Shown here piece by piece: positions 26,055 through 63,785 of a stretch of 64,000 nt of DNA (position 1 is its first letter; every line of letters starts with the position of its first letter). Under the pieces are notes generated by a model. That model was not told the origin of the DNA. It saw only the letters and a list, made by a program, of their open reading frames with translations, and did no database searches. Source of the stretch: Escherichia coli (GTDB lineage: Bacteria > Pseudomonadota > Gammaproteobacteria > Enterobacterales > Enterobacteriaceae). The position numbers and the translations under genes are program-made. Where the stretch lies: NCBI RefSeq assembly GCF_050320075.1, contig NZ_CP190018.1; one strand, written 5' to 3'.

Positions 26055-26603
26055 TTACTTTTCTTCAGGTTTGTTGTCTTCAGATTTCTTCTTGATGCTT
26101 GGTTTTTGTCTAAGAACGAAAATACCAGCCACTGCAACAACTGTACCGATCACTGTGCCAGCTAGAACTTCATGACCTGTTAAACCTAATAATGTTGCAC
26201 AAGCTACTGTAAAAATAGTTGCACTCAGGCCAAACCACTGCCCACGTTTATCTCTATTAATAGCCCCGTCAAGTGCCTTTTCCTCCATTTTCTGGCGGTG
26301 AGCAAACTCCTTCTCCGTCAGCTGGAAGATGCGTTCGGGGGCATCAGGTAAAATATCCTGATACCCGCGAAGCAGATAGGGGGGAGGAAGCGGACCCTGA
26401 AACGCATGGTGAGCGACAACTATCTCCTGAATTTCAGGGCGATCAAGAACTCTTGTGAAGGCATCTGGGTGTTGAATGATCTCGTTACTTAGCCCTTCCT
26501 CAACTTCCTCGAACTCAGTTTCTTCGTTATCACTTGGTTGCCCAATAGATTTTTGCATATTTGTCGAAGGACATTCCTTTAGCTTCTGGTTTTCCTCTTG
26601 CAT
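26055..26603 (-). CDS. Membrane protein: acidic N-terminal soluble domain plus C-terminal TM helices (possibly DUF2335-like)
   Basis: 182 aa; hydrophobic stretch WFGLSATIFTVACATLLGLTGHEVLAGTVIGTVVAVAGIFVL near the C-terminus; start 26603 or 26558. Confidence 0.5.
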   Translation of the reverse strand: MQEENQKLKECPSTNMQKSIGQPSDNEETEFEEVEEGLSNEIIQHPDAFTRVLDRPEIQEIVVAHHAFQGPLPPPYLLRGYQDILPDAPERIFQLTEKEFAHRQKMEEKALDGAINRDKRGQWFGLSATIFTVACATLLGLTGHEVLAGTVIGTVVAVAGIFVLRQKPSIKKKSEDNKPEEK

Positions 26604-49399: not shown

Positions 49400-49434
49400 C
49401 AGCCCGACGAACTGTTTCGCCGGGCTGATTTTTT
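49400..49434 (+). terminator. Rho-independent terminator after perM
   Basis: CAGCCCG...CGGGCTG hairpin followed by ATTTTTT. Confidence 0.6.
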
Positions 49435-50281
49435 AGGGTTCCTGACGTAAATAAATAGCCCGATAACAAATACTCACCAGCACTGCACCGCCGATAATAT
49501 TACCCAGCATCACCGGGAGCAGATTGGCGGTAATAAAATGGCTGACCGTCAGTGCCGGAAAATTGTCTGCGCTACTGTGCGCCAGTTGCCAGAAGGGGGG
49601 AGGGGCGAAATGGCGAATGGCAATGGCGAACGGAATCACAAACAAATTGGCGATACAGTGCTCAAAGCCACTTGCGACAAACAGGGTGATGGGCAAAATC
49701 ATGGCGACGATTTTGTCGCATAATGAACGTCCGCAATAACTCATCCACAGCGCCAGGCAAACCATCACATTGCACATAATGCCGAGGCTGACTGATTCAG
49801 TAAATGTATGATGCATTTTGCCCTCGGCGCAGTGTAAAACCGCGACTCCCCACATCGCGTTTTCACTCATCACCAGCCCGGAAAACCAGATTAACAAACT
49901 GAAACAGGCAATACCTGCCAGATTACCGCAGGCCACCAGAAGTGCATTAATCAGCCATGTTCGCCAGCTAATAACGCCCCGACTTTTTGCCATCACCGTC
50001 ATTACCGACGAGGTGAACAGGCTGGTGCCGCAAACCGCTAGCAAAATAAAGCCGAGTGTAAAGCAAAGGCCGCCCACCAGATGGGTTAATGCCTGTGAAG
50101 ACGGGGCATCGGCGATAACGGAAAGGTAAAAAGTAAATCCAATCGCCATAAACACGCCAGCGGACATCGCCATTAAAAAGACCGATACTTTGCTGCGGGC
50201 AATTTTATGGGCAGCAATCCGTTCAGCGATTGCCGCTTTTCTGGCGCTCAACTGCAAGTCGAAAGAGAGTTTGTTTCTCAT
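49433..50281 (-). CDS. focB: Formate channel FocB
   Basis: 282 aa, formate/nitrite transporter-like membrane protein next to hyfR. Confidence 0.85.
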   Translation of the reverse strand: MRNKLSFDLQLSARKAAIAERIAAHKIARSKVSVFLMAMSAGVFMAIGFTFYLSVIADAPSSQALTHLVGGLCFTLGFILLAVCGTSLFTSSVMTVMAKSRGVISWRTWLINALLVACGNLAGIACFSLLIWFSGLVMSENAMWGVAVLHCAEGKMHHTFTESVSLGIMCNVMVCLALWMSYCGRSLCDKIVAMILPITLFVASGFEHCIANLFVIPFAIAIRHFAPPPFWQLAHSSADNFPALTVSHFITANLLPVMLGNIIGGAVLVSICYRAIYLRQEP

Positions 50282-50302
50282 GCATACTCCTGCAAAAACA
50301 GA

Positions 50303-52318
50303 TTACAACACCTCGCGAACCGAGATCCCCAGCCGCTGCATTCGTGACAGCAGCGTGGTGCGCTTCATCCCTAATCGCGTCGCCGCGCCACGGGGCCCGG
50401 CAACAATGCCATTGGTTTCTCGCAATACCTGAACAATGCGCTGACGTTCTTCTTCGTCATTCTCTGGCGTCGTCGGGTGCAGCAACTGTGCCATTGAACT
50501 GCGAAGCGCTGAATCTTCATTTAGCGTCGGCAGTAAACGGCTTTGTCGGACATTAAGATGTAAATTCAGACTGTTACCGCGAGTCAGTAGTACCGCTCGC
50601 TCAATCACGTTTTCCAGCTCGCGCACGTTGCCCGGCCAATCCCACGACATCAACTGGCGTAGTGCCTCGGTCGGGATGGCGTCAATTGCGCGATTCATAT
50701 GGCGCGCCATTTTTTGCGTGAAATGTTTTGCTAAAAGAGGGATATCTTCCGGACGGTCGCGCAGCGGCGGCAATTCCAGTGGGAAGACATTCAGGCGATA
50801 AAAGAGATCGCTGCGAAACTGGCGATCTTCAACCATTTGCCACAAATCACGGTTGGTGGCGGCAATGACTCTGACATTCACCGGGATCGTTCTACTCCCG
50901 CCGAGACGCTCAATCTCCCGTTCCTGCAATACGCGCAGCAGTTTAGGCTGAAGTTCTAACGGCAGATCGCCAATTTCATCGAGAAACAACGTGCCGCCAT
51001 CGGCAATTTCAAAACGACCACGATGGGTATTAATCGCACCAGTAAATGCCCCTTTGTCATGACCGAATAACTCACTTTCCAGAAGACTGGCGGGGATGGC
51101 AGCGCAGTTGATTTTGACCAGTGGCTTGTCGCGTCGTGGGCTAAGTTGATGGATCGCTCTGGCGATCACCTCTTTGCCGGTTCCGGTTTCACCACAAATC
51201 AACACCGTACTGACGCTCTTCGCCACAATATCTACCTGCTGGAGCAAATCTTCCATTGCCTGGCTTTGATAGATAATGTCACCGACGCCCAGATTCGAAA
51301 GGAGCTGCTCGCTAAGCTGGTGGTTTTCTTGCTGCAAGCTTTCCTGCAAATCGGTCATGCTGCGCCAGGCATCGGCATTGCCAACGGCAATAGCGATGCG
51401 ATCGGCAATATGTTGTAGTAGCTGGCAGTTTTCCTCACTAAAGAGAGTGGAAGAGGTATGCGCCAGCAACAATGCGCCCGGTGTATGGTTGCCAAAGGTG
51501 AGCGGTATCAGGAGCGCAGATTCGCAGCCGTTAGATGCAAGTAAGTGTAATAACGGGTCGCGTTGCCAGAGAAACAGATCGTCTGCACGGTGCGTCAAGG
51601 TCGGTTGTCGGGTTTGTAGCGTTTGTGTCAGCAATACACTTTCGCCAGGCATACAGCGTGGCAGACACGCACAATGTGAGGCAGAAAGATCGCTGCACCA
51701 CAGGCTGAACTTCTCGTTCTTTCGATGATCGCCCAGTACCATACTGACTGAAGCCAGACCGAAAAAATGATGGATCTCACGAGCGACGTCAGCGATCAGA
51801 TCGTCGAGATCAAGATGTGACAACACTGCATTAGTGATATCCACCAGTACCCGATGATGATCGCGATCTTTCTCCAGCAAACGCAGCGCCACCTGCTGTT
51901 CTTCATCATTGAGCCATGATTGCAGAACCGGAGTGATTATGTGTGCCAGCCAGTTAAACAGTGTGCAATCCTGGGGAGTAAAACGGCTGCCGTGAGTGCG
52001 AATAAAGCGTAGCTCCGCCATTCCACTACTGCCGAGAAGGACGGCGTGACGCGAATAATCGACCATCTCACCCTGATACTCTGTTGTTGCCGTCACATCG
52101 CTGCCATCATCATGGTAGCGGTAATAGAAGTTGCTTTTGAGAACATGCAGTTCAATAAGTTGTACCGGGCTGAACGGCGGCGGCAGCGGGATGAAGGCGC
52201 GTAATAAAGACGCCTTGCCGTGTTTCTGCGCTAACCGCTCCGCGAGCATTCCGTTTACCGCTTCAATTGTTATTCCTTGCGGCGGGGCAAACATCGCCTC
52301 GTCTGACATAGCCATCAA
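50303..52318 (-). CDS. hyfR: Sigma54-dependent transcriptional activator HyfR
   Basis: 671 aa; AAA+ sigma54-interaction region with GETGTGKE and GAFTGA; C-terminal HTH. Confidence 0.85.
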
Positions 52319-52344
52319 CAGTCCTTATTAATGAGAAATCCTTC

Positions 52345-52758
52345 TCACGCAATTTTTCTGGCCATCAGATAGATGGCCGGTTCCTGCACAATTTCATCCA
52401 ACAGATGAATGAATTGAATGCTACGCGCCTGCCACGCCGACGTCGCGTCATCTGCCAGTGGCGCGAATGCCCGGGTCAACAGGGCGGTGTGGCTGGCGTC
52501 AATAACAATCTCACCAAAAGTCATCACCCCCAGCATCTTACGTCGGGCTTGCTCCTCTTCGACCAGTGCAAGCCAATCTTCGTATTCCGTCAGTGGGCAG
52601 CGGAAGGCGACATTCAGACAATCAATCACGCCAACGTGATGGCCGATAGCCAACGAGTAATACATTACCTGGGAGCTGTGTTCCGGCATCTCGTCGCTAC
52701 TGGCGATAAATTTTTTTCGCAGCATCCAGAAAACAATTTCCCTGCACTCCTCAGCCAT
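52345..52758 (-). CDS. hyfJ: Hydrogenase-4 component HyfJ
   Basis: 137 aa; position at the operon end. Confidence 0.75.
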
Positions 52759-53509
52759 GTAACCCCCGGAGAACGCGAAAGAGTTGCTGAACGATACTAT
52801 TGAGACGCGGATCGTCGGCTTCGCGCAACCAGGTGTTAACCCGATTTCCTGTGGGATCGTCGCTTAAATGGCGCAGGAGTCGATCGCAAATTTCTCGCCC
52901 TTGACGATAGCCCGCCAGCCGCCTCGCTTCTCGCTCAATGGCGATACGCTGTGATGGCGGGATCTGCGGCCACAGCGGTTGCATGGTCACCCCGGTGGGA
53001 TCGCGATAATCCACCGCGTGAATCTTCTGTTGCAGCAAACCGAGCGCCACGGCGAAACCGTGAATGGTGGCGGCCGGTGTTGGCGGGCAGCCGGGGATCC
53101 AAACATCAATGGGGACAATGGTGTCGCTGCCGCCCCAGACGCTGTAGAGATCGTGGAAAATACCGCCGCCGACACCACACGCGCCGTAGGAAACACAGAT
53201 TTTATGATCGGGGGCAGACTCATATGCCCGAAGTGCAGGCATACGCATCGCCCGGGTGACTGCGCCAGTAAATAACAAAATATCGGCGTGACGCGGTGAT
53301 GAAACAACCTTAATGCCAAAACGTTCTGCGTCGAATACGGGTGTGATGGCGGCAAAAATTTCGATTTCGCAGGCGTTACAGCCGCCGCAATCGACGCGAT
53401 AAACGTAGGCCGAGCGACGGATATCCTGTAGCAAATGCTGCTTCATCTTTTGCGTTTGCTCGTCCAGCGTTATGGGCTGGCTGACATGTTGCGTAAGCAC
53501 TGGACTCAT
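52751..53509 (-). CDS. hyfI: Hydrogenase-4 small subunit HyfI
   Basis: 252 aa; Cys motifs typical of a NuoB-like small subunit. Confidence 0.85.
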
Positions 53510-54051
53510 AGCTGCTCCTTAGCCACCAGCGGTTCATCTGTGTCGTCGTTGATCAGCGTCGCGCGTTGTTTGCATTCCGGGCAGACGCTCGCTTGCGCCC
53601 GCAACATTTCGCGGTTTTGTGGTGCATTTTGTTGCTGTGCCAACAGTTCTGCAGCCAGTGCGACGGTTTTTTGCGGGGCAAACGGGCGTTCGCAACGGCT
53701 GCAACGTTGTAGATGGAACGTCGCGCGGGTATAGAGATCGGCTTTATTGGTGACGGTCAGTTCAAAGTTATTGGTAAGCTGAATGGCTCTGGTCGGGCAC
53801 ACTTCTTCACAACGTCCGCAGTAAATACAACGTCCCAGATAGAGCTGCCAGGTGCGCGTATTTTGCTGGTAGTCGGTCTGGATAGTCAGCGCATTTGCCG
53901 GACAAGCACAGGCGCAGGCACCGCAGGCAATACATTGGCTGGGCATCAGGTCCGGTTTCCCGCGAAAGCCTGGGCTGACCTCCAGTGGTGCGAAGGGATA
54001 TTTCACCGTCGCGGTTCCGGCGCGCATAATAGTTTTCAGTAACTTCAGCAT
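53506..54051 (-). CDS. hyfH: Hydrogenase-4 ferredoxin-like subunit HyfH
   Basis: 181 aa with two CxxCxxCxxxCP motifs. Confidence 0.8.
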
Positions 54052-54060
54052 CTTCTGTCC

Positions 54061-55776
54061 TTACTTCAGCGGCGAACGGTTACGATCAATGCCGTAGCGT
54101 TCGATCTCTTTATACGGCACGATTTTTGACTGGCGCTTGCGCACATCAACCAGCGTCACACGGTCGGTACAGGAGTAGCAGGGATCAAGGCTACCGATAA
54201 TTAGCGGTGCGTCAGAAACGGTATTGCCGCGCAGCATGTAACGCAGCACTGGCCAGTTGGCGTAGGTGGCGGCACGACAGCGCCAGCGGAACAATTTTTG
54301 GTTATCACCGAGCATGCTCCAGTGCACGTCTTCACCACGTGGCGCTTCAACAAAGCCCAGCGCGAATGCGTGAGGTTTATAGCTAAAGCCTTCGGTCAGC
54401 AGTGGGGTATCTGGCATGTTGTCGAGGGCAAATTCCAGCATTGCCAGCGAATCAAACGTCTCTTTGACACGGACCATCACGCGGGAGAAGACATCGCCGC
54501 CGGTAAAGGTAAACAGCGTTTTTGGAATATTGCCGTAGTCGGCGTAGGGGTGATCAAAGCGCAAATCACGGGCAAAACCACTGCCGCGGATCAGCGGCCC
54601 GACAGGGCTATAATCACGGGCGATTTGTCGGTCGAGAATGCCAATGCCCTGAGTGCGTTGTTCCATATTCGGCGTGGCAAGCAGCATCTCTACCAGCTCC
54701 GACACGTCGGCGCGCATCTCGCGCACTAGTTTCAGCGTTTGCAGACGTTGCTCTTTGAGAATATCGCGGCGAACACCACCAATCAGATTCAGACCGTAGG
54801 TTTTACGCGACCCGGTCAGCAATTCCGCCATCGTCATCGACTTTTCCCGCACGCGGAAAAATTGCATAAAGCCGGTATCAAAACCAACAAAATGACAGGA
54901 GAGGCCAAGGTTGAGCAAATGACTGTGCAGCCGTTCGACTTCCAGCAGAATCGAGCGAATAGTATGCGCTCGTTGCGGCACCTCAATCCCCAGTGCATTT
55001 TCAACCGAGTTGGTATAGGCCACACTGTGGGCAAAACCACAAATCCCACACACGCGGTCGGATAAGAAGGTCACTTCGTTGTAGCCCATCCGCGTTTCTG
55101 CCAGTTTCTCCATGCCGCGATGGACATAAAACAGGCGGTAATCAGCATCGACAATTTGCTCGCCATCCACAAACAAGCGGAAGTGACCTGGTTCATCGGA
55201 GGTGATATGCAGCGGGCCGACAGGGATCACCCGCGCATCGCTGTTGCCCTCGTTGATAAACGGATACGTTTCGGTATCAGTCGTCGGTTCTGGGCGCAGT
55301 CGATAATCCATCGCGTCTTTGCGCAGCGGATGCATATCTTCCGGCCAGTCATCGGGCAACACCAGCCGACGCTGATCCGGCAGGCCAACCGGAATCAGCC
55401 CGTACATATCGCGAATTTCTCGCTCGCCCCAGACCGCGGCAGGGACGCGCGGTGTGACTGACGGAAACTCCCGACTGTCGGCATCGACCAGTGCCTTCAC
55501 CACGATCCAGCATTTTTCGGCCCCTTCCATAGAAAGGGCGTAATAAACCGCGTAATGACCGTTAAGTGTCCGCTCGTCGTTGCCAAACAGGACCGGAAGC
55601 CAGCCATCATGTTGATAATAAAGATAATGTACAACGTCAGGCAGCAGATTGATTTTCACCGTAATGGTGACCTGTTCAGGCGTTTGTCGCTCTTCATCCA
55701 GCACCGCGCCGGGGAACTGCGTTTTCAGGGCGGCGAGAATCGCTTCGCCACGATTTGACGATGAATTAACGTTCAC
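54061..55776 (-). CDS. hyfG: Hydrogenase-4 large subunit HyfG (start set to GTG with GGAGAA RBS)
   Basis: NiFe large-subunit-like; N-terminal CGICGFAH motif and C-terminal DPCYSCTDR motif. Confidence 0.85.
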
Positions 55777-57346
55777 TGTGTTTCTCCGAAACAGATGCGG
55801 TGCCTGAAGGCAAAAAATCATGCCAGGTGCTACGTTGTGCAGGCAGGTCGTGCGTCCCTGAGAGGACTATAGTGGAAGCGCCCGCCAGGATCCTGATGAC
55901 AGGTTGTGGAATATGCGTTCCCATCGCCAGCATCATGACCAGCAGAATCACCATTGGCGAGGTGGTCAACCAGCCAAGTTCACCCCGGTTAACGGCCTGC
56001 GGCGGTTTCGCCATTAATACCCGTGCAGCCATCCGTACCAGGCCCGCCAGCACCAGCGTTAACAGCAATAACAGCAGGACGATAAGCAGCAGATGATTAC
56101 GCGCCAGTCCGGCGGTAACGGTCATAAATTCGCTAAGAAAAATGTTGAAGGGCGGCATCCCGGCCAGCGCCAGCGCACCGCCGCCAAACAACACGGCGGT
56201 AAATGGCATGATTTTGAGCATCCCACAGACGACGTTGAGATCGCGCGTGCCGTACTTGAGCAGTACATTGCCGGAACCGCAGAACAACAGCGTTTTGGCC
56301 AGACTGTGGTTTAAGGTGTGCAGCAGCGCGGCAAAAATTCCCAGCGGCCCGCCAATGCCTAACGCCGCCGCGACCAGTCCCATGTTCTCCACGCTGGAGT
56401 ACGCCAGCAGACGCTTAATGTCCCGCTGTACCAGAATGAAAAATGCCGCCACGGCAACCGACAACATGCCGAAGATGAGCAACAACCGGTTGGGGAAATC
56501 GCTGCCGATGGCCTGGCAAATAATGATGTAATAGCGAATAAGCACCAACAGCGCGCAGTTCAGCAATACGGCGGAGAGCAGGGCGCTGACCGGACTCGGC
56601 GCTTCACTGTGAGCATCTGGCAGCCAGGCGTGCATGGGGAATAGCCCGGTTTTGGTGCCAAAGCCAATTAGCACAAACACAAAGGCCAACAGCATTAATG
56701 TTGGGTCAAGCAAGGACGATTGCTTAAGAACCTCGCTCCAGAATATCGCCATTTCTGCCTGCGGCATAACGCTGGCGGCGTTGGCGTATACCAGCACGGT
56801 ACCGAACAGACCAAAAGCGACACCAACAGTACAAATAATGATGTACTTCCATGCAGCTTCCAGCGATGAACGCTGACCGTAAATGCCTACCAGAAACGCC
56901 GAGCTTAAGGTGGTGGCTTCAATTGCCGCCCACATCACAATCAGGTTATTGCTGGTAACAACCAGCAGCATGGTGAACAAAAACAGATGGAAGAAACCGT
57001 AGTAATCGCACAGCGTAACGGGTGAAAGCTCGCCGTGTGCCACTTCATGACGCATGTAGCCAATCGAGTAAACACCGGTGAGAAAGCCAATCACACCAAG
57101 AATGGCGAGGAACAAACCGCCCAGACCATCAATGTGAAGCCACAGTCCCGCAGCGAATATTTCTCCCGCATCAGCGGCAGTTTGGACCACCCACAGTGCC
57201 AGAATCAGCAGCAGTGTGATCCCTAAGCCATGTAGTACTGTCACCGTGCGAGTCGCAGAGTGCCCCCGTTTCCGGCAGGCAAAACAGAGCAGCGAAAAAA
57301 GCAGCGGCGTGAGCAGGAGTAAAGCGAACATCACAGAATAACTCAT
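55766..57346 (-). CDS. hyfF: Hydrogenase-4 membrane subunit HyfF
   Basis: 526 aa multi-TM antiporter-like subunit. Confidence 0.85.
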
Positions 57347-57350
57347 CTCA

Positions 57351-58001
57351 TTATCCCTTCAGCGCGGTCAAGTTATTCACGTCCAGCGTGCCGTGGGTAC
57401 GCCATATTTTTCTTGCCAGTAACACCATCACAATGACGGCGAAGATGGCGTCGGTAGCGATACCTATTTCCACCAGTTCCGGTGCTCGCCAGGCAAGAAG
57501 CGCCAGCACCAGATGGGAGCCGTTTTCCATCAGGCAGTAACCAAAAATTTGCCGCAGGATATTGCGCTGGCTGACAATGCACAGCAGGCCAAGCAGAAAA
57601 TGACCTAACGCCACCGCCAGCGCCGGTTTCAGCCCGGTAGCCATCGGTAGCTTCACGGGCTGAACGACAAATGCGCAAAGCAGGACAATTAACGCCGCGA
57701 GCAGTGTCATCATTGCCGGACCGAATAACGCTTTTTCCGGGATGTTCTGGGGAATATTTCGTGCAGCGTAAGTCATGATTAACGGTACCAGCAGCACTTT
57801 GGTGATAAAGGCGCTGGCGGACCAGATCAGCAGTTGCTCTGCGACGAACAGGCACGAGAGGGTGGCGAAAATAGACACCAGCACCAGCGACTGGCAGGCG
57901 TAAAATCCGCATGACAGGCGATAGCTTTTGACGCTAATCACAAACAGCGATGTCAGCATCATCAGTCCCGCCAGATTATTTACGATCATAGAACCGGTCA
58001 T
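57351..58001 (-). CDS. hyfE: Hydrogenase-4 membrane subunit HyfE
   Basis: 216 aa multi-TM. Confidence 0.8.
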
Positions 58002-58012
58002 TCATCATCTCC

Positions 58013-59452
58013 TTACTGCAACCAGGTCGCGGCGATTACGCTGGAAATCAGCGACATCACAATCAGTACAATCAACACCAGGCGCATTGATCCTGGCAGC
58101 GGTGCGGCATCGGCGACGGCCTCGCTCGGTTTGCCAGGCACGACGCGACCAAACCAGCGAATAAACCAGGCGAAACTGGCGACCGATTCAATCATCAGCA
58201 GAATCATGGCGGGCAGCAGGATCCAGTACTCCACTGACAACGCAAAACCGGCGGCAAACAGCGGGAATTTACTGAAGAAGCCGTTGAACGGCGGTACGCC
58301 GGTAATCGCCAGCGCTGCCACGCAGAAACCCACGCCTGGCAACGGCAGGGTGTGCAATACGCCACGCAGACGCGGCAACAAGCGCGTGCCGCAGCTGTAA
58401 CTCAGCGCACCTGCTACAAGGAAAAATAGGCTTTTAGCGAACGCGTGGTTGACGATGTAGGCGATGCTGCCCTCCAGCGCCAGCCGCGAGCCGAAGATGG
58501 AGAGCGACAAGCCGAAAAACATCCAGCCAAGTTGAGTGATGGTCGACCAGGCCAGCAACCGCTTCATATCCTGCTGTGGCAAATACATCAGGAAGCCATA
58601 AAGAATGGTGACCAGTGCCATAACCATGCCAACGCCGCCAATCACATGCGGGATATTGCCGCCGTCGATAATGGCGCGGGCAAAAATGTAAACGCCCACT
58701 TTCACCATCGATGCGGCGTGGAGATAGGCGCTGATCGGTGTTGGCGCTTCCATTGCATCCGGTAGCCACGCTTGCATCGGTAGCTGGGCCGATTTCCCCC
58801 ACGCGGCAAACAGGATGCCACCATAAACCAGATAGCGTGCGTCGCCGTGTAACTCGCTCATCGCGCTGAGCGCGAACGTTCCGGTCTGCAAAAACAGCGT
58901 GGCGGCGGCAAGATACAACCCCAACGAACCGATATGAGTGATAAGCAACGCTTTTAGTGCTGAACGCTGCGCTTTATCGCTCTGGTAATAACTGATCAAC
59001 GCCCAGGAGCAGCCGCCCGTAATTTCAAAAAACAACAACTGACCGAGCAGCGTCGAGGAGAGTACCAGTCCCGCCATCGCGCCGATAAAAACCAGCAAAA
59101 ATGCGTAATAACGATTCGTGCCGTTATGCGGGTGTTCGCGATTTTTATCCGTCAGATAACCCGTGGAGTAGATCGTGACCAGCAAACCGAGAAACACCAC
59201 CACAAACAGAATCAGCGTACTCACGCGATCAATGACCAGGCCAAACAACGCCACACCCCCCACGTTGACCAACGTCAACGTGACGGCAACTTTATCGGCC
59301 TGATAAAACGCGGAGATCAGTGACAACATGCACAGCGTGGTCAGCGCGGCGAACAAAACCCCCCATTCGGCGGCCCGACGTTGTGGCGAAAACGAAACGA
59401 CCAGTGCGCCGATAAAAGGCAGCAATAACGTCGTCAGAGCAAGATTTTCCAT
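58013..59452 (-). CDS. hyfD: Hydrogenase-4 membrane subunit HyfD
   Basis: 479 aa antiporter-like. Confidence 0.85.
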   Translation of the reverse strand: MENLALTTLLLPFIGALVVSFSPQRRAAEWGVLFAALTTLCMLSLISAFYQADKVAVTLTLVNVGGVALFGLVIDRVSTLILFVVVFLGLLVTIYSTGYLTDKNREHPHNGTNRYYAFLLVFIGAMAGLVLSSTLLGQLLFFEITGGCSWALISYYQSDKAQRSALKALLITHIGSLGLYLAAATLFLQTGTFALSAMSELHGDARYLVYGGILFAAWGKSAQLPMQAWLPDAMEAPTPISAYLHAASMVKVGVYIFARAIIDGGNIPHVIGGVGMVMALVTILYGFLMYLPQQDMKRLLAWSTITQLGWMFFGLSLSIFGSRLALEGSIAYIVNHAFAKSLFFLVAGALSYSCGTRLLPRLRGVLHTLPLPGVGFCVAALAITGVPPFNGFFSKFPLFAAGFALSVEYWILLPAMILLMIESVASFAWFIRWFGRVVPGKPSEAVADAAPLPGSMRLVLIVLIVMSLISSVIAATWLQ

Positions 59453-59468
59453 ATTCCGTCAGTGCTCC

Positions 59469-60416
59469 TTACAGACCGGTTAACCAGAAGACCCATGCAA
59501 GCGCAGCAAGGCTGAAGCCAAGCCAGGTCACATGGTGAATGAGTAAAAATCGCCCGCGTGCCAGCGTGTTTTCTGCGATTGAGGCCAGTACAAAAATCAG
59601 CAAAACCTTGAGCAGCGTAACGACAAGTGAAGTCAGCAGGCAGGCGAGAGAAAGCTCTTGCGCGCGCCCAAAGGGCAGAAACAGGGCCACAAACAGTGAT
59701 GCCATCACGACCTGTTTCAGCCCCAGCCCCAACTTCGCCAGCGCCAGCCCGGCACCGGAATATTCGGTCAGCGGGCCTTCCTGTAATTCCTGTTCTGCTT
59801 CAGCAACATCAAAGGGAATTTTTCCCATCTCAATGAAGCAGGCAAAACCACAGGCCAGTAACGCCAGTACGGTGGTTAGCGGCGAGTTCCAGCCCGTCGC
59901 CAGCGTCTTGCTGATCATCTCGATATGCGTGGAATCCGCTATCAGCGCCAATACCAGCAGTGAGAGAATGAGCATGGGTTCGACCAGAATGCCGAGCGTC
60001 AACTCGCGACTGGCACCGACTCCCGCAAACGGGCTTCCGGTATCCAGCCCGGAAAGAGCAAAGAAAAAATGAAACAGGGCAAGAAGATAGATAAGGGTGA
60101 TCAGATCGCCGCCGCCCGCAAAAGGGGAAACAGTAATAAATAGTGGCAGGGCCATCGCCAGCACCAGCATGCTGCTGATTAATACCCACGGCATCAGGCG
60201 GAACATCAGACCTGAAGATGTCGGCGCAACTTCCTGGCGTTTAAACAGTTTGTGGATATCGCGATAATCCTGCCAGAACCCCGGTCCGCGACGGGAGTGC
60301 ATTCGCGCGCGTATCTGCCGGGAAATCCCCGTAAAAAGCGGGGTTAGCACCAGCAGAGTCACGGCCTGTGCTAACGCAAAAATGACCAGATATCCGTCGC
60401 AAAGAGTTTGTCTCAT
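59469..60416 (-). CDS. hyfC: Hydrogenase-4 membrane subunit HyfC (NuoH-like)
   Basis: Start set at MRQTLCDGYLVIFALAQ; multi-TM. Confidence 0.8.
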   Translation of the reverse strand: MRQTLCDGYLVIFALAQAVTLLVLTPLFTGISRQIRARMHSRRGPGFWQDYRDIHKLFKRQEVAPTSSGLMFRLMPWVLISSMLVLAMALPLFITVSPFAGGGDLITLIYLLALFHFFFALSGLDTGSPFAGVGASRELTLGILVEPMLILSLLVLALIADSTHIEMISKTLATGWNSPLTTVLALLACGFACFIEMGKIPFDVAEAEQELQEGPLTEYSGAGLALAKLGLGLKQVVMASLFVALFLPFGRAQELSLACLLTSLVVTLLKVLLIFVLASIAENTLARGRFLLIHHVTWLGFSLAALAWVFWLTGL

Positions 60417-60426
60417 GGTGATTTCC

Positions 60427-62445
60427 TTAGACGGCAATAGCGATTAGCAGCACAACCAGTGCGGCGACCACATACAGGCAATAGAGACGAAAGTCGCCAC
60501 TTTGCAGATGCTGTATTTCTTTGGCCAGCCGTTGGGTGGCGCTCACGATGGGGCGGATCACCCGCTCATCCCAGAAGGGTTCTGTGCTCTGAGCCCTGGC
60601 GGTGACGTGCGCAAGACCTTTGTTCAGCCTCAGCGTAGGGTCGAGCTGTTGTCGTAGACGAAATAGCGCACAAAAGACCACACGCAGCGGCTGCATCACG
60701 CCATTGCCTGACGGGGCCATCGCATGTTCCCAGCCGTAGCCGCATGCCCAGGCATCTCCAGTGCGACGAAACGCTGCGCGGCGCGAACGACACCACAGCC
60801 AGTAAAGGCCAGGCAGCAAAGGCATCGCCAGTAGTAACAGCAACAGTAATGAGGGAGTGACCCGTGTATGAAACGTGCCGGGTACAAGTGCTATTCCGCT
60901 GGTGACAGTGACGGGAGGGGTATTGGTAAACGCATGGGCAATGTGCATTATCTTCGGTGCCAGCCAACTGGCACTAAGCGCAATGAATACGCAGAGTGCC
61001 GCGAGCAGTAGCATGGCGACGATCATCGTATTTGGCACTTCCTGTGCCTCTTCAGCGTGTGTACTGCGCGGCGCGCCACAGAAAGTAATACCGTACATTT
61101 TGACGAAGCACATTACTGCCAGCCCACCAGTGACTGCCAGCATCACCATAGCAATAGGACCCGCAAGTTGTAGCGCTACGGCTTCCACACGACTTAGTGA
61201 GAACAGCGACTGCCAGGTGTACCATTCGCTGATAAAACCATTCAGCGGAGGAATGGCTGATATCGCGAGGCAACCAATCAGGCATGCTGCGGCTGTCCAC
61301 GGCATCCGTTTCGCCAGTGCCCCCATTTTTTCCATGTCGTGGGTATGCAAACGCGAAATAATCGCACCCGCGCCGAGAAACAGCAGCCCTTTGAACAGCG
61401 CATGGTTGAGCAGATGAAACAGCGCGCCGAGCAGTCCAACAACGGTGAGCAGCGGGTCGTGCAGTGACAGACCGACCATCGCCACACCGACCGCCAGCAA
61501 AATAATGCCGACGTTTTCGACGGTGCTCCAGGCCAGCAGCCGTTTGATATCCTGTTCCGCCAGCGCATACAGCACGCCCAGGAGCGCGGAGATTGCGCCG
61601 ATCGCCATCACCAGAATGCCCCACCACAGCGGCAAACCCGTTTGCGCCAGCAGATCAATCGCTACTTTCAGGATGCCGAAAATACCGATTTTGACCATTA
61701 CGCCAGACATCAACGCCGAAGCGTGCGATGGTGCGGCAGGGTGAGCGCGTGGCAACCAGCTGTGCAACGGCATCATCCCGGCTTTCGCGCCAAAACCGAA
61801 AAAGGCCAGCAGGAACACCGCCGACGCCAGCCCCGGAGAAAGTGAAAGCGTGCGGAAACTGGCAAAATCGAGGCTGCCGCTTTCGCGCCCCATCAGCAAG
61901 AAGGCGATCATAATCAGCACCGATCCGGCGTGGGCGATAAAAAAGTAGAGCATGCCAGCGTTGATCGACGTTTTATCCTGCCTGGCAATGACCAGAAACC
62001 AGGAAGACAGCGACATCATTTCAAACAGCACGATGAACCAAAAAGCGTTGTCCATCACCAGCAGGGCAACCATCGATGCGATGAAAAGATTCATAAAGAA
62101 GCCCATCGCCGCCGCGCCTTTACCCTCGTATTCGCGCATATAAGTCAATGAATAGAGCGAACAAACCACCACCAGCAAGGAGATAACCATCACCATAAAT
62201 GCCGAGAGGCTATCCATTCGCAGTGTTAAATCGGCAAAGTCAAAAGGCGTGGCAAAACGGGCGACTAAAGTTACGCCTGCATGTAATTGCGTAATTCCGC
62301 TGATGATGCCAATCACGCCACCCACCAGCGATGTGATGCCGGAAAGCTTAATAGCCAGTCTGTCCAGACCGAGTAAAAACAGCGAAGCCAGACTGGCAAA
62401 CAGATAGAGGATCAGTGACCAGGTTAATAATTGCAGGGCATCCAT
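60427..62445 (-). CDS. hyfB: Hydrogenase-4 membrane subunit HyfB
   Basis: 672 aa antiporter-like. Confidence 0.85.
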   Translation of the reverse strand: MDALQLLTWSLILYLFASLASLFLLGLDRLAIKLSGITSLVGGVIGIISGITQLHAGVTLVARFATPFDFADLTLRMDSLSAFMVMVISLLVVVCSLYSLTYMREYEGKGAAAMGFFMNLFIASMVALLVMDNAFWFIVLFEMMSLSSWFLVIARQDKTSINAGMLYFFIAHAGSVLIMIAFLLMGRESGSLDFASFRTLSLSPGLASAVFLLAFFGFGAKAGMMPLHSWLPRAHPAAPSHASALMSGVMVKIGIFGILKVAIDLLAQTGLPLWWGILVMAIGAISALLGVLYALAEQDIKRLLAWSTVENVGIILLAVGVAMVGLSLHDPLLTVVGLLGALFHLLNHALFKGLLFLGAGAIISRLHTHDMEKMGALAKRMPWTAAACLIGCLAISAIPPLNGFISEWYTWQSLFSLSRVEAVALQLAGPIAMVMLAVTGGLAVMCFVKMYGITFCGAPRSTHAEEAQEVPNTMIVAMLLLAALCVFIALSASWLAPKIMHIAHAFTNTPPVTVTSGIALVPGTFHTRVTPSLLLLLLLAMPLLPGLYWLWCRSRRAAFRRTGDAWACGYGWEHAMAPSGNGVMQPLRVVFCALFRLRQQLDPTLRLNKGLAHVTARAQSTEPFWDERVIRPIVSATQRLAKEIQHLQSGDFRLYCLYVVAALVVLLIAIAV

Positions 62446-63062
62446 TAGCGTTGCTCCTGAGTGAGGGAAAGGGGATCCTCCCCGCCATTGGCAAACCAGC
62501 TTGCGGCAAGGCGCTGTTTTTCTTTCATCTGACGTTGCAGGCTATCGTCGGTGATCAGCCGTAACGCCTGATTCGGGCAAGCGCGAACGCAGGCCGGACC
62601 TTCTGGCAAGAAATCACACAGGTCGCATTTCACCGCGACGGTCTGGACACCCGGTTCCCAGCGCAGCAAAGCATGTTGGGTCGGCGCGTTTTCTTCGCCG
62701 TCTTTGAGTGAGCCGTCAGCCTGAAAAACATATTGCGCAGGGGCATTCACCGGACGGCTTCCTGAAGCGCTGATTGCGCCAAATGGGCAGACCACGGCGC
62801 AAAGCTTGCAGCCAATACAGAGGCTTTCGTTGAGTTGGATCGCATCGTCCCTCTGGGAGATGGCATTGACCGGGCAGACCTGCAGGCAAGGGGCTTCCTC
62901 ACAGTGATGACACACGACAGGGGCAGTGAGTGTTGACGTCTTCGCCAGGGCCAGGCGCGGGTGTTGCTGTAAACCTTGCGTTTTATGCACGTCCGAACAG
63001 GCAGCGAGACAGGTATTACATCCTGTACACCACAGTGGTTCGGCCACCACAAAGCGGTTCAT
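62445..63062 (-). CDS. hyfA: Hydrogenase-4 4Fe-4S ferredoxin subunit HyfA (start at MNRFVVAEPLWCTGCNTC)
   Basis: Multiple CxxCxxC ferredoxin motifs; first gene of the operon. Confidence 0.8.
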   Translation of the reverse strand: MNRFVVAEPLWCTGCNTCLAACSDVHKTQGLQQHPRLALAKTSTLTAPVVCHHCEEAPCLQVCPVNAISQRDDAIQLNESLCIGCKLCAVVCPFGAISASGSRPVNAPAQYVFQADGSLKDGEENAPTQHALLRWEPGVQTVAVKCDLCDFLPEGPACVRACPNQALRLITDDSLQRQMKEKQRLAASWFANGGEDPLSLTQEQR

Positions 63063-63103
63063 GTCGGCTCCTTGAAAATGATATGAAACATTGCATTTCA
63101 TAT

Positions 63104-63119
63104 TGCATAAAGGATGCCA
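63104..63119 (-). promoter_or_regulatory. Sigma54 (-24/-12) promoter of the hyf operon
   Basis: Minus-strand sequence TGGCATCCTTTATGCA matches TGGCAC-N5-TTGCA; about 40 bp upstream of hyfA. Confidence 0.6.
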
Positions 63120-63314
63120 GTCTGATTAATTTAATGTATTCAATAAGTTATGAATTAACTGTATTCTGAACGGTACAAAAATGATGGTCATTAACGTTCA
63201 GCAAAAAATGAATTCGACACCCGTGTCGCAGGGGAAAGCGAGAATGTGATCTTGATCACGAGAAGTGAGGTGTGCTGACCGCAAGCGCAGCCAGCACGGA
63301 ATGGAGCAAAGTAA

Positions 63315-63785
63315 TCAGGCGTGTTCTTTCAGCCAGTTCAGCACAACGTCGTGGTGATTGCTGGTTTTGAAATCGTCAAAGACATGTTCGATTTTGCCAT
63401 CAGCGTCAATCAGGAAGCTGATGCGATGAATACCATCGTAGGTTTTGCCCATGAAGGACTTTTCACCCCAGACGCCGAATTGTTCGCACACCTGGTGGTC
63501 CTCATCAGACAGGAGCGTAAAGTTAAGCAGCTCTTTTTCCGCAAAACGGGAGAGTTTTTCGGGTTTATCGGTGCTGATACCCAGCACATCAACGCCCGCT
63601 TTTTTCAACTCATCCATGTTATCGCGTAAGCCGCAGGCCTGTACGGTACAGCCGGGGGTCATGGCTTTCGGGTAGAAATAAACCAGAACACGCTGTCCCT
63701 GGAAGTCGGTCAAATTAACTTGTTCTCCGTCTTGATCCGGCAAGCTAAATTTCGGTGCGATATCACCGGCTTTCAGTGGATTCAT
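63315..63785 (-). CDS. bcp: Thiol peroxidase / bacterioferritin comigratory protein (peroxiredoxin)
   Basis: 156 aa; peroxiredoxin motif PGCT; conserved bcp-hyfA context. Confidence 0.9.
   Translation of the reverse strand: MNPLKAGDIAPKFSLPDQDGEQVNLTDFQGQRVLVYFYPKAMTPGCTVQACGLRDNMDELKKAGVDVLGISTDKPEKLSRFAEKELLNFTLLSDEDHQVCEQFGVWGEKSFMGKTYDGIHRISFLIDADGKIEHVFDDFKTSNHHDVVLNWLKEHA

What the first reader, a model, noticed from the sequence alone, without database searches (positions are those of the whole stretch)
63104..63119. Sigma54 promoter upstream of hyfA
TGGCAT-N5-ATGCA on the coding strand matches the -24/-12 consensus, consistent with the sigma54/HyfR-dependent hyf operon. Expected host feature.
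Basis: established knowledge. Interest (0 to 1): 0.1.

Follow-up and report, generated by a model that had tools for sequence, protein, structure and literature searches.

The report
Known sigma-54 promoter of hyf operon
This is the already characterised sigma-54 (-24/-12) promoter of the E. coli hydrogenase-4 (hyf) operon, identical to the K-12 element and sitting in a conserved enhancer-type regulatory region, so it is an ordinary, expected host feature.

Summary
TGGCATCCTTTATGCA lies at 63119->63104 on the minus strand, the hyfA coding strand, 41 nt upstream of the hyfA ATG (63062). It has the GG-N10-GC spacing of a sigma-54 promoter.

The 16-mer is identical to E. coli K-12. There, published ChIP-seq maps sigma-54 to exactly this motif (EcoCyc status "confirmed"). 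In vitro genomic SELEX puts one of the strongest RpoN-holoenzyme peaks in the bcp-hyfA spacer.

A weight matrix built from 134 other ChIP-bound sites ranks this site first in the 64-kb window (16.3 bits). The motif alone is only weakly above chance (0.53 such sites expected per window). Position, orientation and conservation carry the argument.

32 of 43 hyfA-homologue loci from other genera have a strong sigma-54 motif 38-136 nt upstream of the gene. Around it is a full enhancer-dependent architecture:
- a TCGNCA-N4-TGNCGA palindrome at about -130, a likely HyfR/FhlA site
- an IHF-like site at about -52
- a CRP-like site at about -160
- an unassigned invariant block at about -90

hyfR, encoding a sigma-54 activator with GAFTGA, is intact in the window. 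Verdict: interpretation supported, already known, low interest.

The parts
63104..63120 (-). Sigma-54 -24/-12 promoter element CTGGCATCCTTTATGCA (GG at 63118-63117, GC at 63106-63105)
   Evidence: Top weight-matrix score in the window, 16.26 bits. The 16-mer is identical to K-12, where sigma-54 ChIP-seq and gSELEX peaks lie on it. Homologous motifs lie upstream of hyfA in other genera.
63092..63093 (-). Expected transcription start (+1)
   Evidence: 63093 is the start predicted by the rule of Bonocora 2015 (19 nt downstream of the motif centre; distance 31 to hyfA). 63092 corresponds to the primer-extension start '30 bp upstream of hyfA' of Skibinski 2002, recalled from memory because the paper is not held. 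Not measured here.
63063..63091 (-). Short 5' leader with Shine-Dalgarno AAGGAG (63073->63068)
   Evidence: Read directly from the sequence. CAAGGAGCC is conserved in Citrobacter and Kosakonia.
63138..63150 (+). IHF-like site ATTCAATAAGTTA (WATCAANNNNTTR with 1 mismatch), centre about -52
   Evidence: Conserved block in alignment A2, and a perfect consensus match in three Citrobacter loci. 24 of 32 hyf-type loci have a site with at most 1 mismatch in the 100 nt upstream of the promoter, against 5.6 in shuffles, nearly always on the same strand and at the same distance. Binding is inferred.
63175..63190 (-). Invariant block TGACCATCATTTTTGT, centre about -90, no factor assigned
   Evidence: 15 of its 16 columns are identical (one T/C column) across window, K-12, 4 Citrobacter and 2 Kosakonia, while the flanks diverge. 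In E. coli it sits in the centre of a 24-nt imperfect inverted repeat.
63214..63229 (.). Palindrome GCGACACGGGTGTCGA (TCGNCA-N4-TGNCGA type), centre about -130: candidate upstream activator site for HyfR/FhlA
   Evidence: 31 of 32 loci with a hyfA-proximal sigma-54 motif have this palindrome with at most 1 mismatch, against 0.11 in shuffles. In 14 loci of four genera its centre lies 101-103 nt upstream of the GG doublet. The same pattern occurs upstream of K-12 hydN (0 mismatches) and fdhF (1 mismatch), both known FhlA targets. Which protein binds is inferred.
63245..63260 (.). CRP-like palindrome CGTGATCAAGATCACA, centre about -160
   Evidence: The aligned Citrobacter sequences are perfect TGTGA-N6-TCACA. 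Binding is inferred.
63272..63297 (-). GC-rich hairpin just after the bcp stop codon (probable bcp 3' hairpin, upstream limit of the hyf control region)
   Evidence: Inverted repeat I2. It forms an 11-bp stem in the RNA fold, z = -2.8 for the 121-nt stretch. Genomes without hyf share sequence with the window only up to about here.
62445..63062 (-). hyfA, first gene of the operon (4Fe-4S ferredoxin-type subunit)
50303..52315 (-). hyfR, sigma-54-dependent activator encoded at the end of the same cluster
   Evidence: Pfam Sigma54_activat 2.9e-74, plus GAF, AAA lid and HTH_8 domains. GAFTGA at residue 423. K-12 annotation agrees.

Best explanation
The element is the sigma-54 (RpoN) promoter of the hyfABCDEFGHIJ(-hyfR-focB) hydrogenase-4 operon, the orthologue of the K-12 hyfA promoter.

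How it most likely works:
1. RNA polymerase carrying sigma-54 binds the GG (63118-63117) and GC (63106-63105) doublets as a stable closed complex. This binding is shown in K-12 on the identical sequence.
2. The closed complex cannot open DNA on its own.
3. A hexameric AAA+ enhancer-binding protein binds the TCGNCA-N4-TGNCGA palindrome about 100 nt upstream. The protein is HyfR, encoded in the same cluster, or its paralogue FhlA.
4. An IHF-induced bend at about -52 brings the activator to the polymerase.
5. ATP hydrolysis by the activator drives open-complex formation, and transcription starts at about 63092/63093, 30-31 nt before the hyfA ATG.

A CRP-like site at about -160 and an unassigned invariant block at about -90 probably add further inputs.

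Shown here or in the papers read: the sequence, its identity to K-12, sigma-54 binding in K-12, the cross-genus conservation of all these blocks, and the presence of an intact activator gene. Inferred: which protein binds which upstream block, and the start site in this strain.
For: - Motif, strand and spacing.
- Best weight-matrix score in the window.
- Window spacer 98% identical to K-12, identical from -27 to the ATG.
- Sigma-54 ChIP-seq peak on this motif in K-12, EcoCyc 'confirmed'.
- Top-ranking gSELEX RpoN-holoenzyme peak in the bcp-hyfA spacer.
- No sigma-70-type consensus anywhere in 62900-63500.
- 32 of 43 hyfA-homologue loci from other genera have a site of at least 12.5 bits on the coding strand 38-136 nt upstream of the gene. 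These include Citrobacter, Kosakonia, Atlantibacter, Sodalis, Morganella, Providencia, Dickeya, Pectobacterium, Photobacterium and Burkholderiaceae. Scores on the opposite strand are mostly low.
- Conserved UAS palindrome at fixed distance. The same pattern lies upstream of K-12 hydN and fdhF.
- Conserved IHF-like site.
- Intact HyfR with a sigma-54 interaction domain and GAFTGA.
- In Proteus mirabilis, hyf promoter activity falls in rpoN and fhlA mutants (PMC7658346).
Against: - Nothing was measured in this strain.
- The motif alone is not statistically compelling: 0.53 equally good sites are expected per window.
- The primary paper with the mapped start and the HyfR gel shifts could not be read.
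- Native expression of E. coli hyf is reported as poor (PMC7384014), so the promoter may rarely fire.
- The palindrome pattern was derived by eye from the same related loci in which it was then counted, so that enrichment figure is inflated.
- The published FhlA matrix consensus (TGWC-N6-GWCA) shares the half-site core but not the arrangement I derive.
- The hycA-hypA spacer has no match to my pattern at 2 mismatches or fewer.
Confidence: 0.95

Rival explanations
1. Sigma-54 holoenzyme does bind here, but the site is in practice non-productive. On this view the operon is 'silent', and the bound closed complex is a poised or vestigial site rather than a working promoter in natural conditions.
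For: E. coli Hyd-4 work is said to be hindered by poor native expression (PMC7384014). A cited paper calls hyf a 'silent operon' in its title (Self et al. 2004). Replacing the hyf promoter with the hyc or T5 promoter did not yield Hyd-4 activity (PMC7654741). Bonocora 2015 stress that most sigma-54 sites are transcriptionally inactive in any one condition. About a fifth of complete E. coli genomes lack the whole cluster.
Against: EcoCyc lists the promoter as experimentally confirmed. The promoter, UAS, IHF-like site and their spacing are conserved across genera in which Hyd-4 is functional, e.g. Pectobacterium. Every base from -27 to the ATG is identical between window and K-12, while the spacer upstream carries 10 substitutions. 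This fits purifying selection.
Confidence: 0.03
2. hyf is really transcribed from somewhere else: a sigma-70 promoter in the spacer or read-through from bcp. The -24/-12 match would then be incidental.
For: bcp is co-directional and only 252 nt upstream. The hairpin after bcp has no U-tract, so some read-through is conceivable.
Against: No sigma-70-like -35/-10 pair was found in 62900-63500. Sigma-54 is physically on this motif in K-12. The motif is conserved upstream of hyfA in loci where the upstream sequence differs.
Confidence: 0.01
3. Chance resemblance to the -24/-12 consensus with no function.
For: About 0.5 sites of this quality are expected per 64 kb. Loose consensus matches are not enriched in the window.
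Against: Position and orientation (roughly a 0.001 chance of such a site in this 252-nt spacer on this strand). Binding data in K-12. Cross-genus conservation.
Confidence: 0.01

Closest known systems
E. coli K-12 hyfA promoter (hyfAp; Skibinski et al. 2002; site OS23 of Bonocora et al. 2015)
   Same: Same locus (bcp-hyfA spacer), the same 16-mer TGGCATCCTTTATGCA, the same distance to hyfA, and identical sequence from -27 to the ATG.
   Different: The base just 5' of the TGGCA is C here and A in K-12, which raises the matrix score from 14.9 to 16.3 bits. Nine more substitutions lie further upstream in the spacer. The window's haplotype is the minority among complete E. coli genomes: 330 against about 2,950 K-12-like.
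Other promoters of the E. coli formate regulon (hycA, hypA, hydN, fdhF), activated by sigma-54 and FhlA
   Same: Sigma-54 -24/-12 element close to the gene. Upstream palindromes built from TGWCG/CGWCA half-sites: hydN has TCGTCACTAGTGTCGA and fdhF has ACGTCAAAACTGACGA. AT-rich DNA separates the UAS from the promoter.
   Different: hyf has its own paralogous activator gene (hyfR) in the cluster. It has a single clear palindrome rather than the clustered sites of hyc-hyp. It also has a conserved CRP-like site and an unassigned -90 block.
hyf promoters of other Enterobacterales (e.g. Proteus mirabilis hyfA, shown to depend on RpoN and FhlA; PMC7658346)
   Same: Sigma-54 motif 38-83 nt upstream of hyfA, a TCGNCA-N4-TGNCGA palindrome, and an IHF-like site at about -50.
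   Different: The UAS sits closer to the promoter in Morganella and Providencia, with centres about 58-71 nt upstream of the GG doublet against 101-103 nt in Escherichia, Citrobacter, Kosakonia and Atlantibacter. The upstream gene also differs.

Membership tests
Sigma-54 (RpoN) -24/-12 promoters | GG and GC doublets exactly one helical turn apart (GG-N10-GC) within a TGGCAC-N5-TTGCW-like sequence | tested here: met
   TGGCATCCTTTATGCA, 2 mismatches to TGGCAC-N5-TTGCA, neither in the GG or GC doublet. 16.26 bits on a matrix of 134 ChIP-bound sites, the best in the window.
Sigma-54 (RpoN) -24/-12 promoters | Located upstream of, and oriented towards, a gene, with the start about 12 nt downstream of the GC | tested here: inconclusive
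   Position and orientation are met: the motif ends 41 nt before the hyfA ATG on the coding strand. The start site was not measured. The rule-based prediction is 63093, and the published primer-extension result (30 bp upstream of hyfA) is recalled from memory only.
Sigma-54 (RpoN) -24/-12 promoters | Physical binding of sigma-54 holoenzyme | not testable with these tools
   Published for the identical 16-mer in K-12: ChIP-seq FAT 16 and gSELEX 92-100% of the top peak.
Sigma-54 (RpoN) -24/-12 promoters | Dependence on a bacterial enhancer-binding protein acting from an upstream site | tested here: met
   At the sequence level only. HyfR, with a Sigma54_activat domain and GAFTGA, is encoded in the cluster. 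A conserved palindrome lies 101-103 nt upstream of the GG doublet. Activation itself was not tested.
Sigma-54 (RpoN) -24/-12 promoters | No need for a sigma-70 -35/-10 pair | tested here: met
   0 sigma-70-like sites in 62900-63500.
Formate-regulon (FhlA/HyfR-activated) promoters | Upstream activator sequence of the FhlA type | tested here: inconclusive
   GCGACACGGGTGTCGA fits a pattern also present upstream of hydN and fdhF and in 31 of 32 hyf-type loci. It does not fit the arrangement of the published FhlA matrix consensus, and no hycA-hypA site matches my pattern.
Formate-regulon (FhlA/HyfR-activated) promoters | Induction by formate, low pH and anaerobiosis through FhlA or HyfR | not testable with these tools
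   Known from Skibinski 2002 and Self 2004, which are cited but not held.
Orthologue of the K-12 hyfA promoter | Same flanking genes and near-identical sequence | tested here: met
   bcp upstream and hyfA-hyfB downstream. 98% identity over 291 nt, and 100% from -27 to the ATG.

The most novel reading that the evidence does not exclude
The promoter itself is known. The least-explained part of the region is the invariant 16-nt block TGACCATCAYTTTTGT at about -90. It is conserved in Escherichia, Citrobacter and Kosakonia while its flanks diverge, and in E. coli it is embedded in a 24-nt imperfect inverted repeat. It could be the operator of a regulator not yet assigned to hyf, for example the factor that keeps the E. 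coli operon nearly silent, or the HyfR-specific site as distinct from the FhlA-type palindrome. I could not check whether the 2002 or 2004 papers or RegulonDB already assign it.
Probability: 0.15. Interest if true: 0.3.

Novelty: already known. Interest (0 to 1): 0.05.

Why it matters
It matters little beyond correct annotation. The finding confirms that the window's right end is ordinary E. coli chromosome, carrying an intact hyf operon with its textbook enhancer-dependent promoter.

The by-products may be mildly useful to people working on why hydrogenase-4 is so poorly expressed in E. coli. These are a cross-genus footprint of the hyf control region (UAS palindrome at fixed phase, IHF-like site, CRP-like site, unassigned -90 block) and the observation that this strain carries a more consensus-like base just 5' of the TGGCA.

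Tried and rejected
- **Primary papers.** I tried to read Skibinski et al. 2002 and Self et al. 2004. Neither is held. Further text searches for the mapped start or for CRP dependence found nothing usable.
- **Consensus counting.** Counting matches to the consensus with 2 mismatches shows no enrichment, so it was replaced by a weight-matrix scan.
- **RefSeq annotation.** The K-12 record carries no promoter feature at this position.
- **Published FhlA consensus.** TGWC-N6-GWCA does not align in register with the hyf palindrome. I therefore call the palindrome a candidate HyfR/FhlA site, not a proven one.
- **Palindrome as a terminator.** The scan flags CGACACGGGTGTCG plus its T-rich tail as an intrinsic terminator for bcp. 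I reject this as the main role. The pattern recurs at a fixed distance from the sigma-54 motif in loci with unrelated upstream sequence, often with non-complementary central bases such as TCGTCA...TGTCGA. A much stronger hairpin follows bcp directly.
- **The -90 block.** I compared it by eye with the IHF, FNR, Fur, ArcA, NarL and ModE consensus sequences as I remember them, and found no convincing match.
- **Upstream in-frame ATG at 63101.** It extends the ORF to 218 aa, but it lies upstream of the expected start site and is not the annotated start.

Full report
**What is in the sequence**

On the minus strand, 63119->63104 reads TGGCATCCTTTATGCA. The minus strand is the coding strand of the gene immediately downstream, a 205-aa 4Fe-4S protein at 62445-63062. 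That gene is annotated hyfA in thousands of E. coli genomes and in K-12. The gene upstream is bcp (63315-63785, minus strand).

The GG doublet (63118-63117) and the GC doublet (63106-63105) are separated by ten bases, the spacing that defines sigma-54 promoters. The motif ends 41 nt before the hyfA ATG (63062).

**Is it more than chance?**

Taken alone, only modestly.
- The exact pattern is expected 0.12 times per window.
- Loose matches to TGGCAC-N5-TTGCA are not enriched: 23 seen, 30 expected.

I then built a weight matrix from the 134 other sigma-54 sites that Bonocora et al. 2015 found by ChIP-seq (motifs copied, hyfA left out).
- The 17-mer CTGGCATCCTTTATGCA scores 16.26 bits. This is the highest score of any position on either strand of the 64-kb window and above the 75th percentile of the genuine sites.
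- Shuffled windows still yield 0.53 such sites on average.

The case therefore rests on context. The chance of such a site in this particular 252-nt spacer, in this orientation, is about one in a thousand. The independent evidence below adds to that.

**Identity with the known promoter**

The window's bcp-hyfA spacer is 98% identical to K-12 MG1655. All ten differences lie upstream of the TGGCA, and every base from there to the ATG is the same.

Two published data sets place sigma-54 on this sequence in K-12.
- Bonocora et al. [quoted passage not shown] The predicted start is 31 nt upstream of hyfA, and the EcoCyc flag is "C", experimentally confirmed.
- Shimada et al. 2021 (PMC8743547) find the bcp>hyfA spacer at 92% of the maximum in genomic SELEX with RpoN holoenzyme alone. 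It is the highest peak of all when NtrC is added.

The primary study is Skibinski et al. [quoted passage not shown] Several held papers cite it, but it is not itself held. From my memory of its abstract, primer extension placed the start 30 bp upstream of hyfA, with appropriately placed -24 and -12 boxes. That corresponds to the A at 63092, 13 nt downstream of the C of the GC doublet.

**Conservation outside E. coli**

A scan of one genome per species for HyfA relatives returned 45 loci.
- In 32 of the 43 loci with upstream sequence, the best matrix hit in the 400 nt upstream is at least 12.5 bits. It lies on the coding strand, 38-83 nt (in one case 136 nt) from the gene start. The opposite strand mostly scores low.
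- The closest relatives are Citrobacter, with HyfA 68-72% identical. They carry ATGGCATCCTTTGTGCA at 38-41 nt.
- The loci without a hit (Serratia, Pseudescherichia and others) appear to have coding sequence upstream, so the homologue there is probably not the first gene of its operon. I did not check this.
- Bonocora's own conservation table also shows high scores for this site in some species and low scores in others.

**The surrounding control region**

I aligned the spacer of the window, K-12, four Citrobacter and two Kosakonia (alignment A2). The alignment shows sharply conserved islands in otherwise diverged DNA. Positions are given relative to +1 = 63092.

1. **CRP-like palindrome, centre about -160.** CGTGATCAAGATCACA, 63260->63245. 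The Citrobacter versions are perfect TGTGA-N6-TCACA.
2. **UAS palindrome, centre about -130.** GCGACACGGGTGTCGA, 63229->63214.
3. **Unassigned block, centre about -90.** TGACCATCAYTTTTGT, 63190->63175, invariant apart from the one T/C position.
4. **IHF-like site, centre about -52.** The block CAYAAC-N3-TTGA has as its complement ATTCAATAAGTTA (63138-63150, plus strand). This matches the IHF consensus WATCAANNNNTTR with one mismatch, and perfectly in three Citrobacter loci.
5. **The -24/-12 element.**
6. **The ribosome-binding site.**

The palindrome generalises. A TCGNCA-N4-TGNCGA pattern with at most one mismatch is present in 31 of the 32 loci that have a hyfA-proximal sigma-54 motif, against 0.11 expected from shuffles. 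In the 14 loci from Escherichia, Citrobacter, Kosakonia and Atlantibacter its centre is always 101-103 nt upstream of the GG doublet.

That enrichment is inflated, because I derived the pattern from these same related sequences. An independent check supports it. The K-12 promoters of hydN and fdhF, both classical FhlA targets, carry TCGTCACTAGTGTCGA and ACGTCAAAACTGACGA in their upstream regions. Only 0.34 hits at two mismatches or fewer are expected over the four regions searched. The hycA-hypA spacer has related half-sites but no match to this exact arrangement.

The IHF-like site is present with at most one mismatch in 24 of 32 loci (5.6 expected), almost always on the same strand and at one of two distances.

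No sigma-70-type promoter is detectable in 62900-63500.

The cognate activator gene hyfR (50303-52315, minus strand) is intact. It encodes GAF, Sigma-54-interaction, AAA-lid and HTH_8 domains and the GAFTGA loop.

**Mechanism**

The anatomy is that of a standard enhancer-dependent promoter.
1. Sigma-54 holoenzyme sits on the -24/-12 element as a closed complex. This is shown in K-12.
2. HyfR or FhlA binds the palindrome about 100 bp upstream. This is inferred.
3. IHF bends the AT-rich DNA between them. This is inferred.
4. ATP hydrolysis by the activator opens the promoter.
5. Transcription starts 30-31 nt before hyfA. This comes from the literature and from the prediction rule.

In Proteus mirabilis, hyf promoter activity drops in rpoN and fhlA mutants (PMC7658346), which supports the same logic for the family.

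**Rivals**

- **A bound but effectively silent site.** This is the only rival with some substance, since native E. coli hyf expression is poor. But it concerns how often the promoter fires, not what the element is. The conservation of the promoter together with its UAS and IHF-like site argues for function.
- **Transcription from a sigma-70 promoter or by read-through from bcp.** This has no positive support.
- **Pure chance.** This is excluded by the binding data.

**Comparison and verdict**

This is the K-12 hyfA promoter in another E. coli strain. The only difference within the 17-mer is C instead of A just 5' of the TGGCA, which is closer to consensus: 16.3 against 14.9 bits. The window's spacer haplotype is the minority among complete genomes: 330 are at least 99% identical over 63075-63140, and about 2,950 are K-12-like.

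Novelty: already known. Interest: very low, as the first reader itself judged.

Noticed in passing
window 50478-50494 (minus strand): The second-best sigma-54 matrix hit in the window is ATGGCACAGTTGCTGCA (15.3 bits). It lies inside the 3' end of hyfR, 196 nt upstream of the focB ATG. K-12 has TGGCGCAGTTACTGCA there. The site is absent from the ChIP-seq tables and supplements of Bonocora 2015. It could be an internal promoter for focB or a chance match.
   Followed up: partly
window 63175-63190 (minus strand), within inverted repeat 63152-63175 / 63192-63215: An invariant 16-nt block TGACCATCAYTTTTGT lies at about -90 of the hyf promoter. It is conserved across Escherichia, Citrobacter and Kosakonia while its flanks diverge. 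In E. coli it sits at the centre of a 24-nt, 75%-complementary inverted repeat. No regulator could be assigned.
   Followed up: partly
window 63081-63103: A perfect 8-nt inverted repeat, ATATGAAA-N7-TTTCATAT, is centred exactly on the expected transcription start at 63092. It is identical in K-12 but not conserved in Citrobacter or Kosakonia. It may be an AT-rich coincidence or a species-specific operator.
   Followed up: no
window about 49400-63270 versus L050: The whole hyf-focB cluster, including this promoter, is missing from roughly 1,130-1,240 of 5,426 complete E. coli genomes. In those genomes the similarity stops about 50 nt after bcp, and bcp is followed directly by yfgO.
   Followed up: partly
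window 63214-63229 plus tail to about 63205 (minus strand): The UAS palindrome, followed by AATTCATTTTTT, is also flagged as an intrinsic-terminator-like site. It might double as a weak terminator for bcp read-through. The stronger hairpin directly after bcp (63272-63297) has no U-tract.
   Followed up: partly
window 26133-26149 (minus strand): The third-best sigma-54 matrix hit is TCGGTACAGTTGTTGCA (15.25 bits). It lies inside an ORF at 26055-26603, far from the hyf locus. Not examined.
   Followed up: no
L015, L016, L018, L023 (Sodalis, an Enterobacterales MAG, Dickeya): In these loci the region upstream of the hyfA homologue also has a strong sigma-54 motif on the opposite strand (16-18 bits). 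This suggests divergent sigma-54 promoters sharing one control region, as at E. coli hycA-hypA.
   Followed up: no
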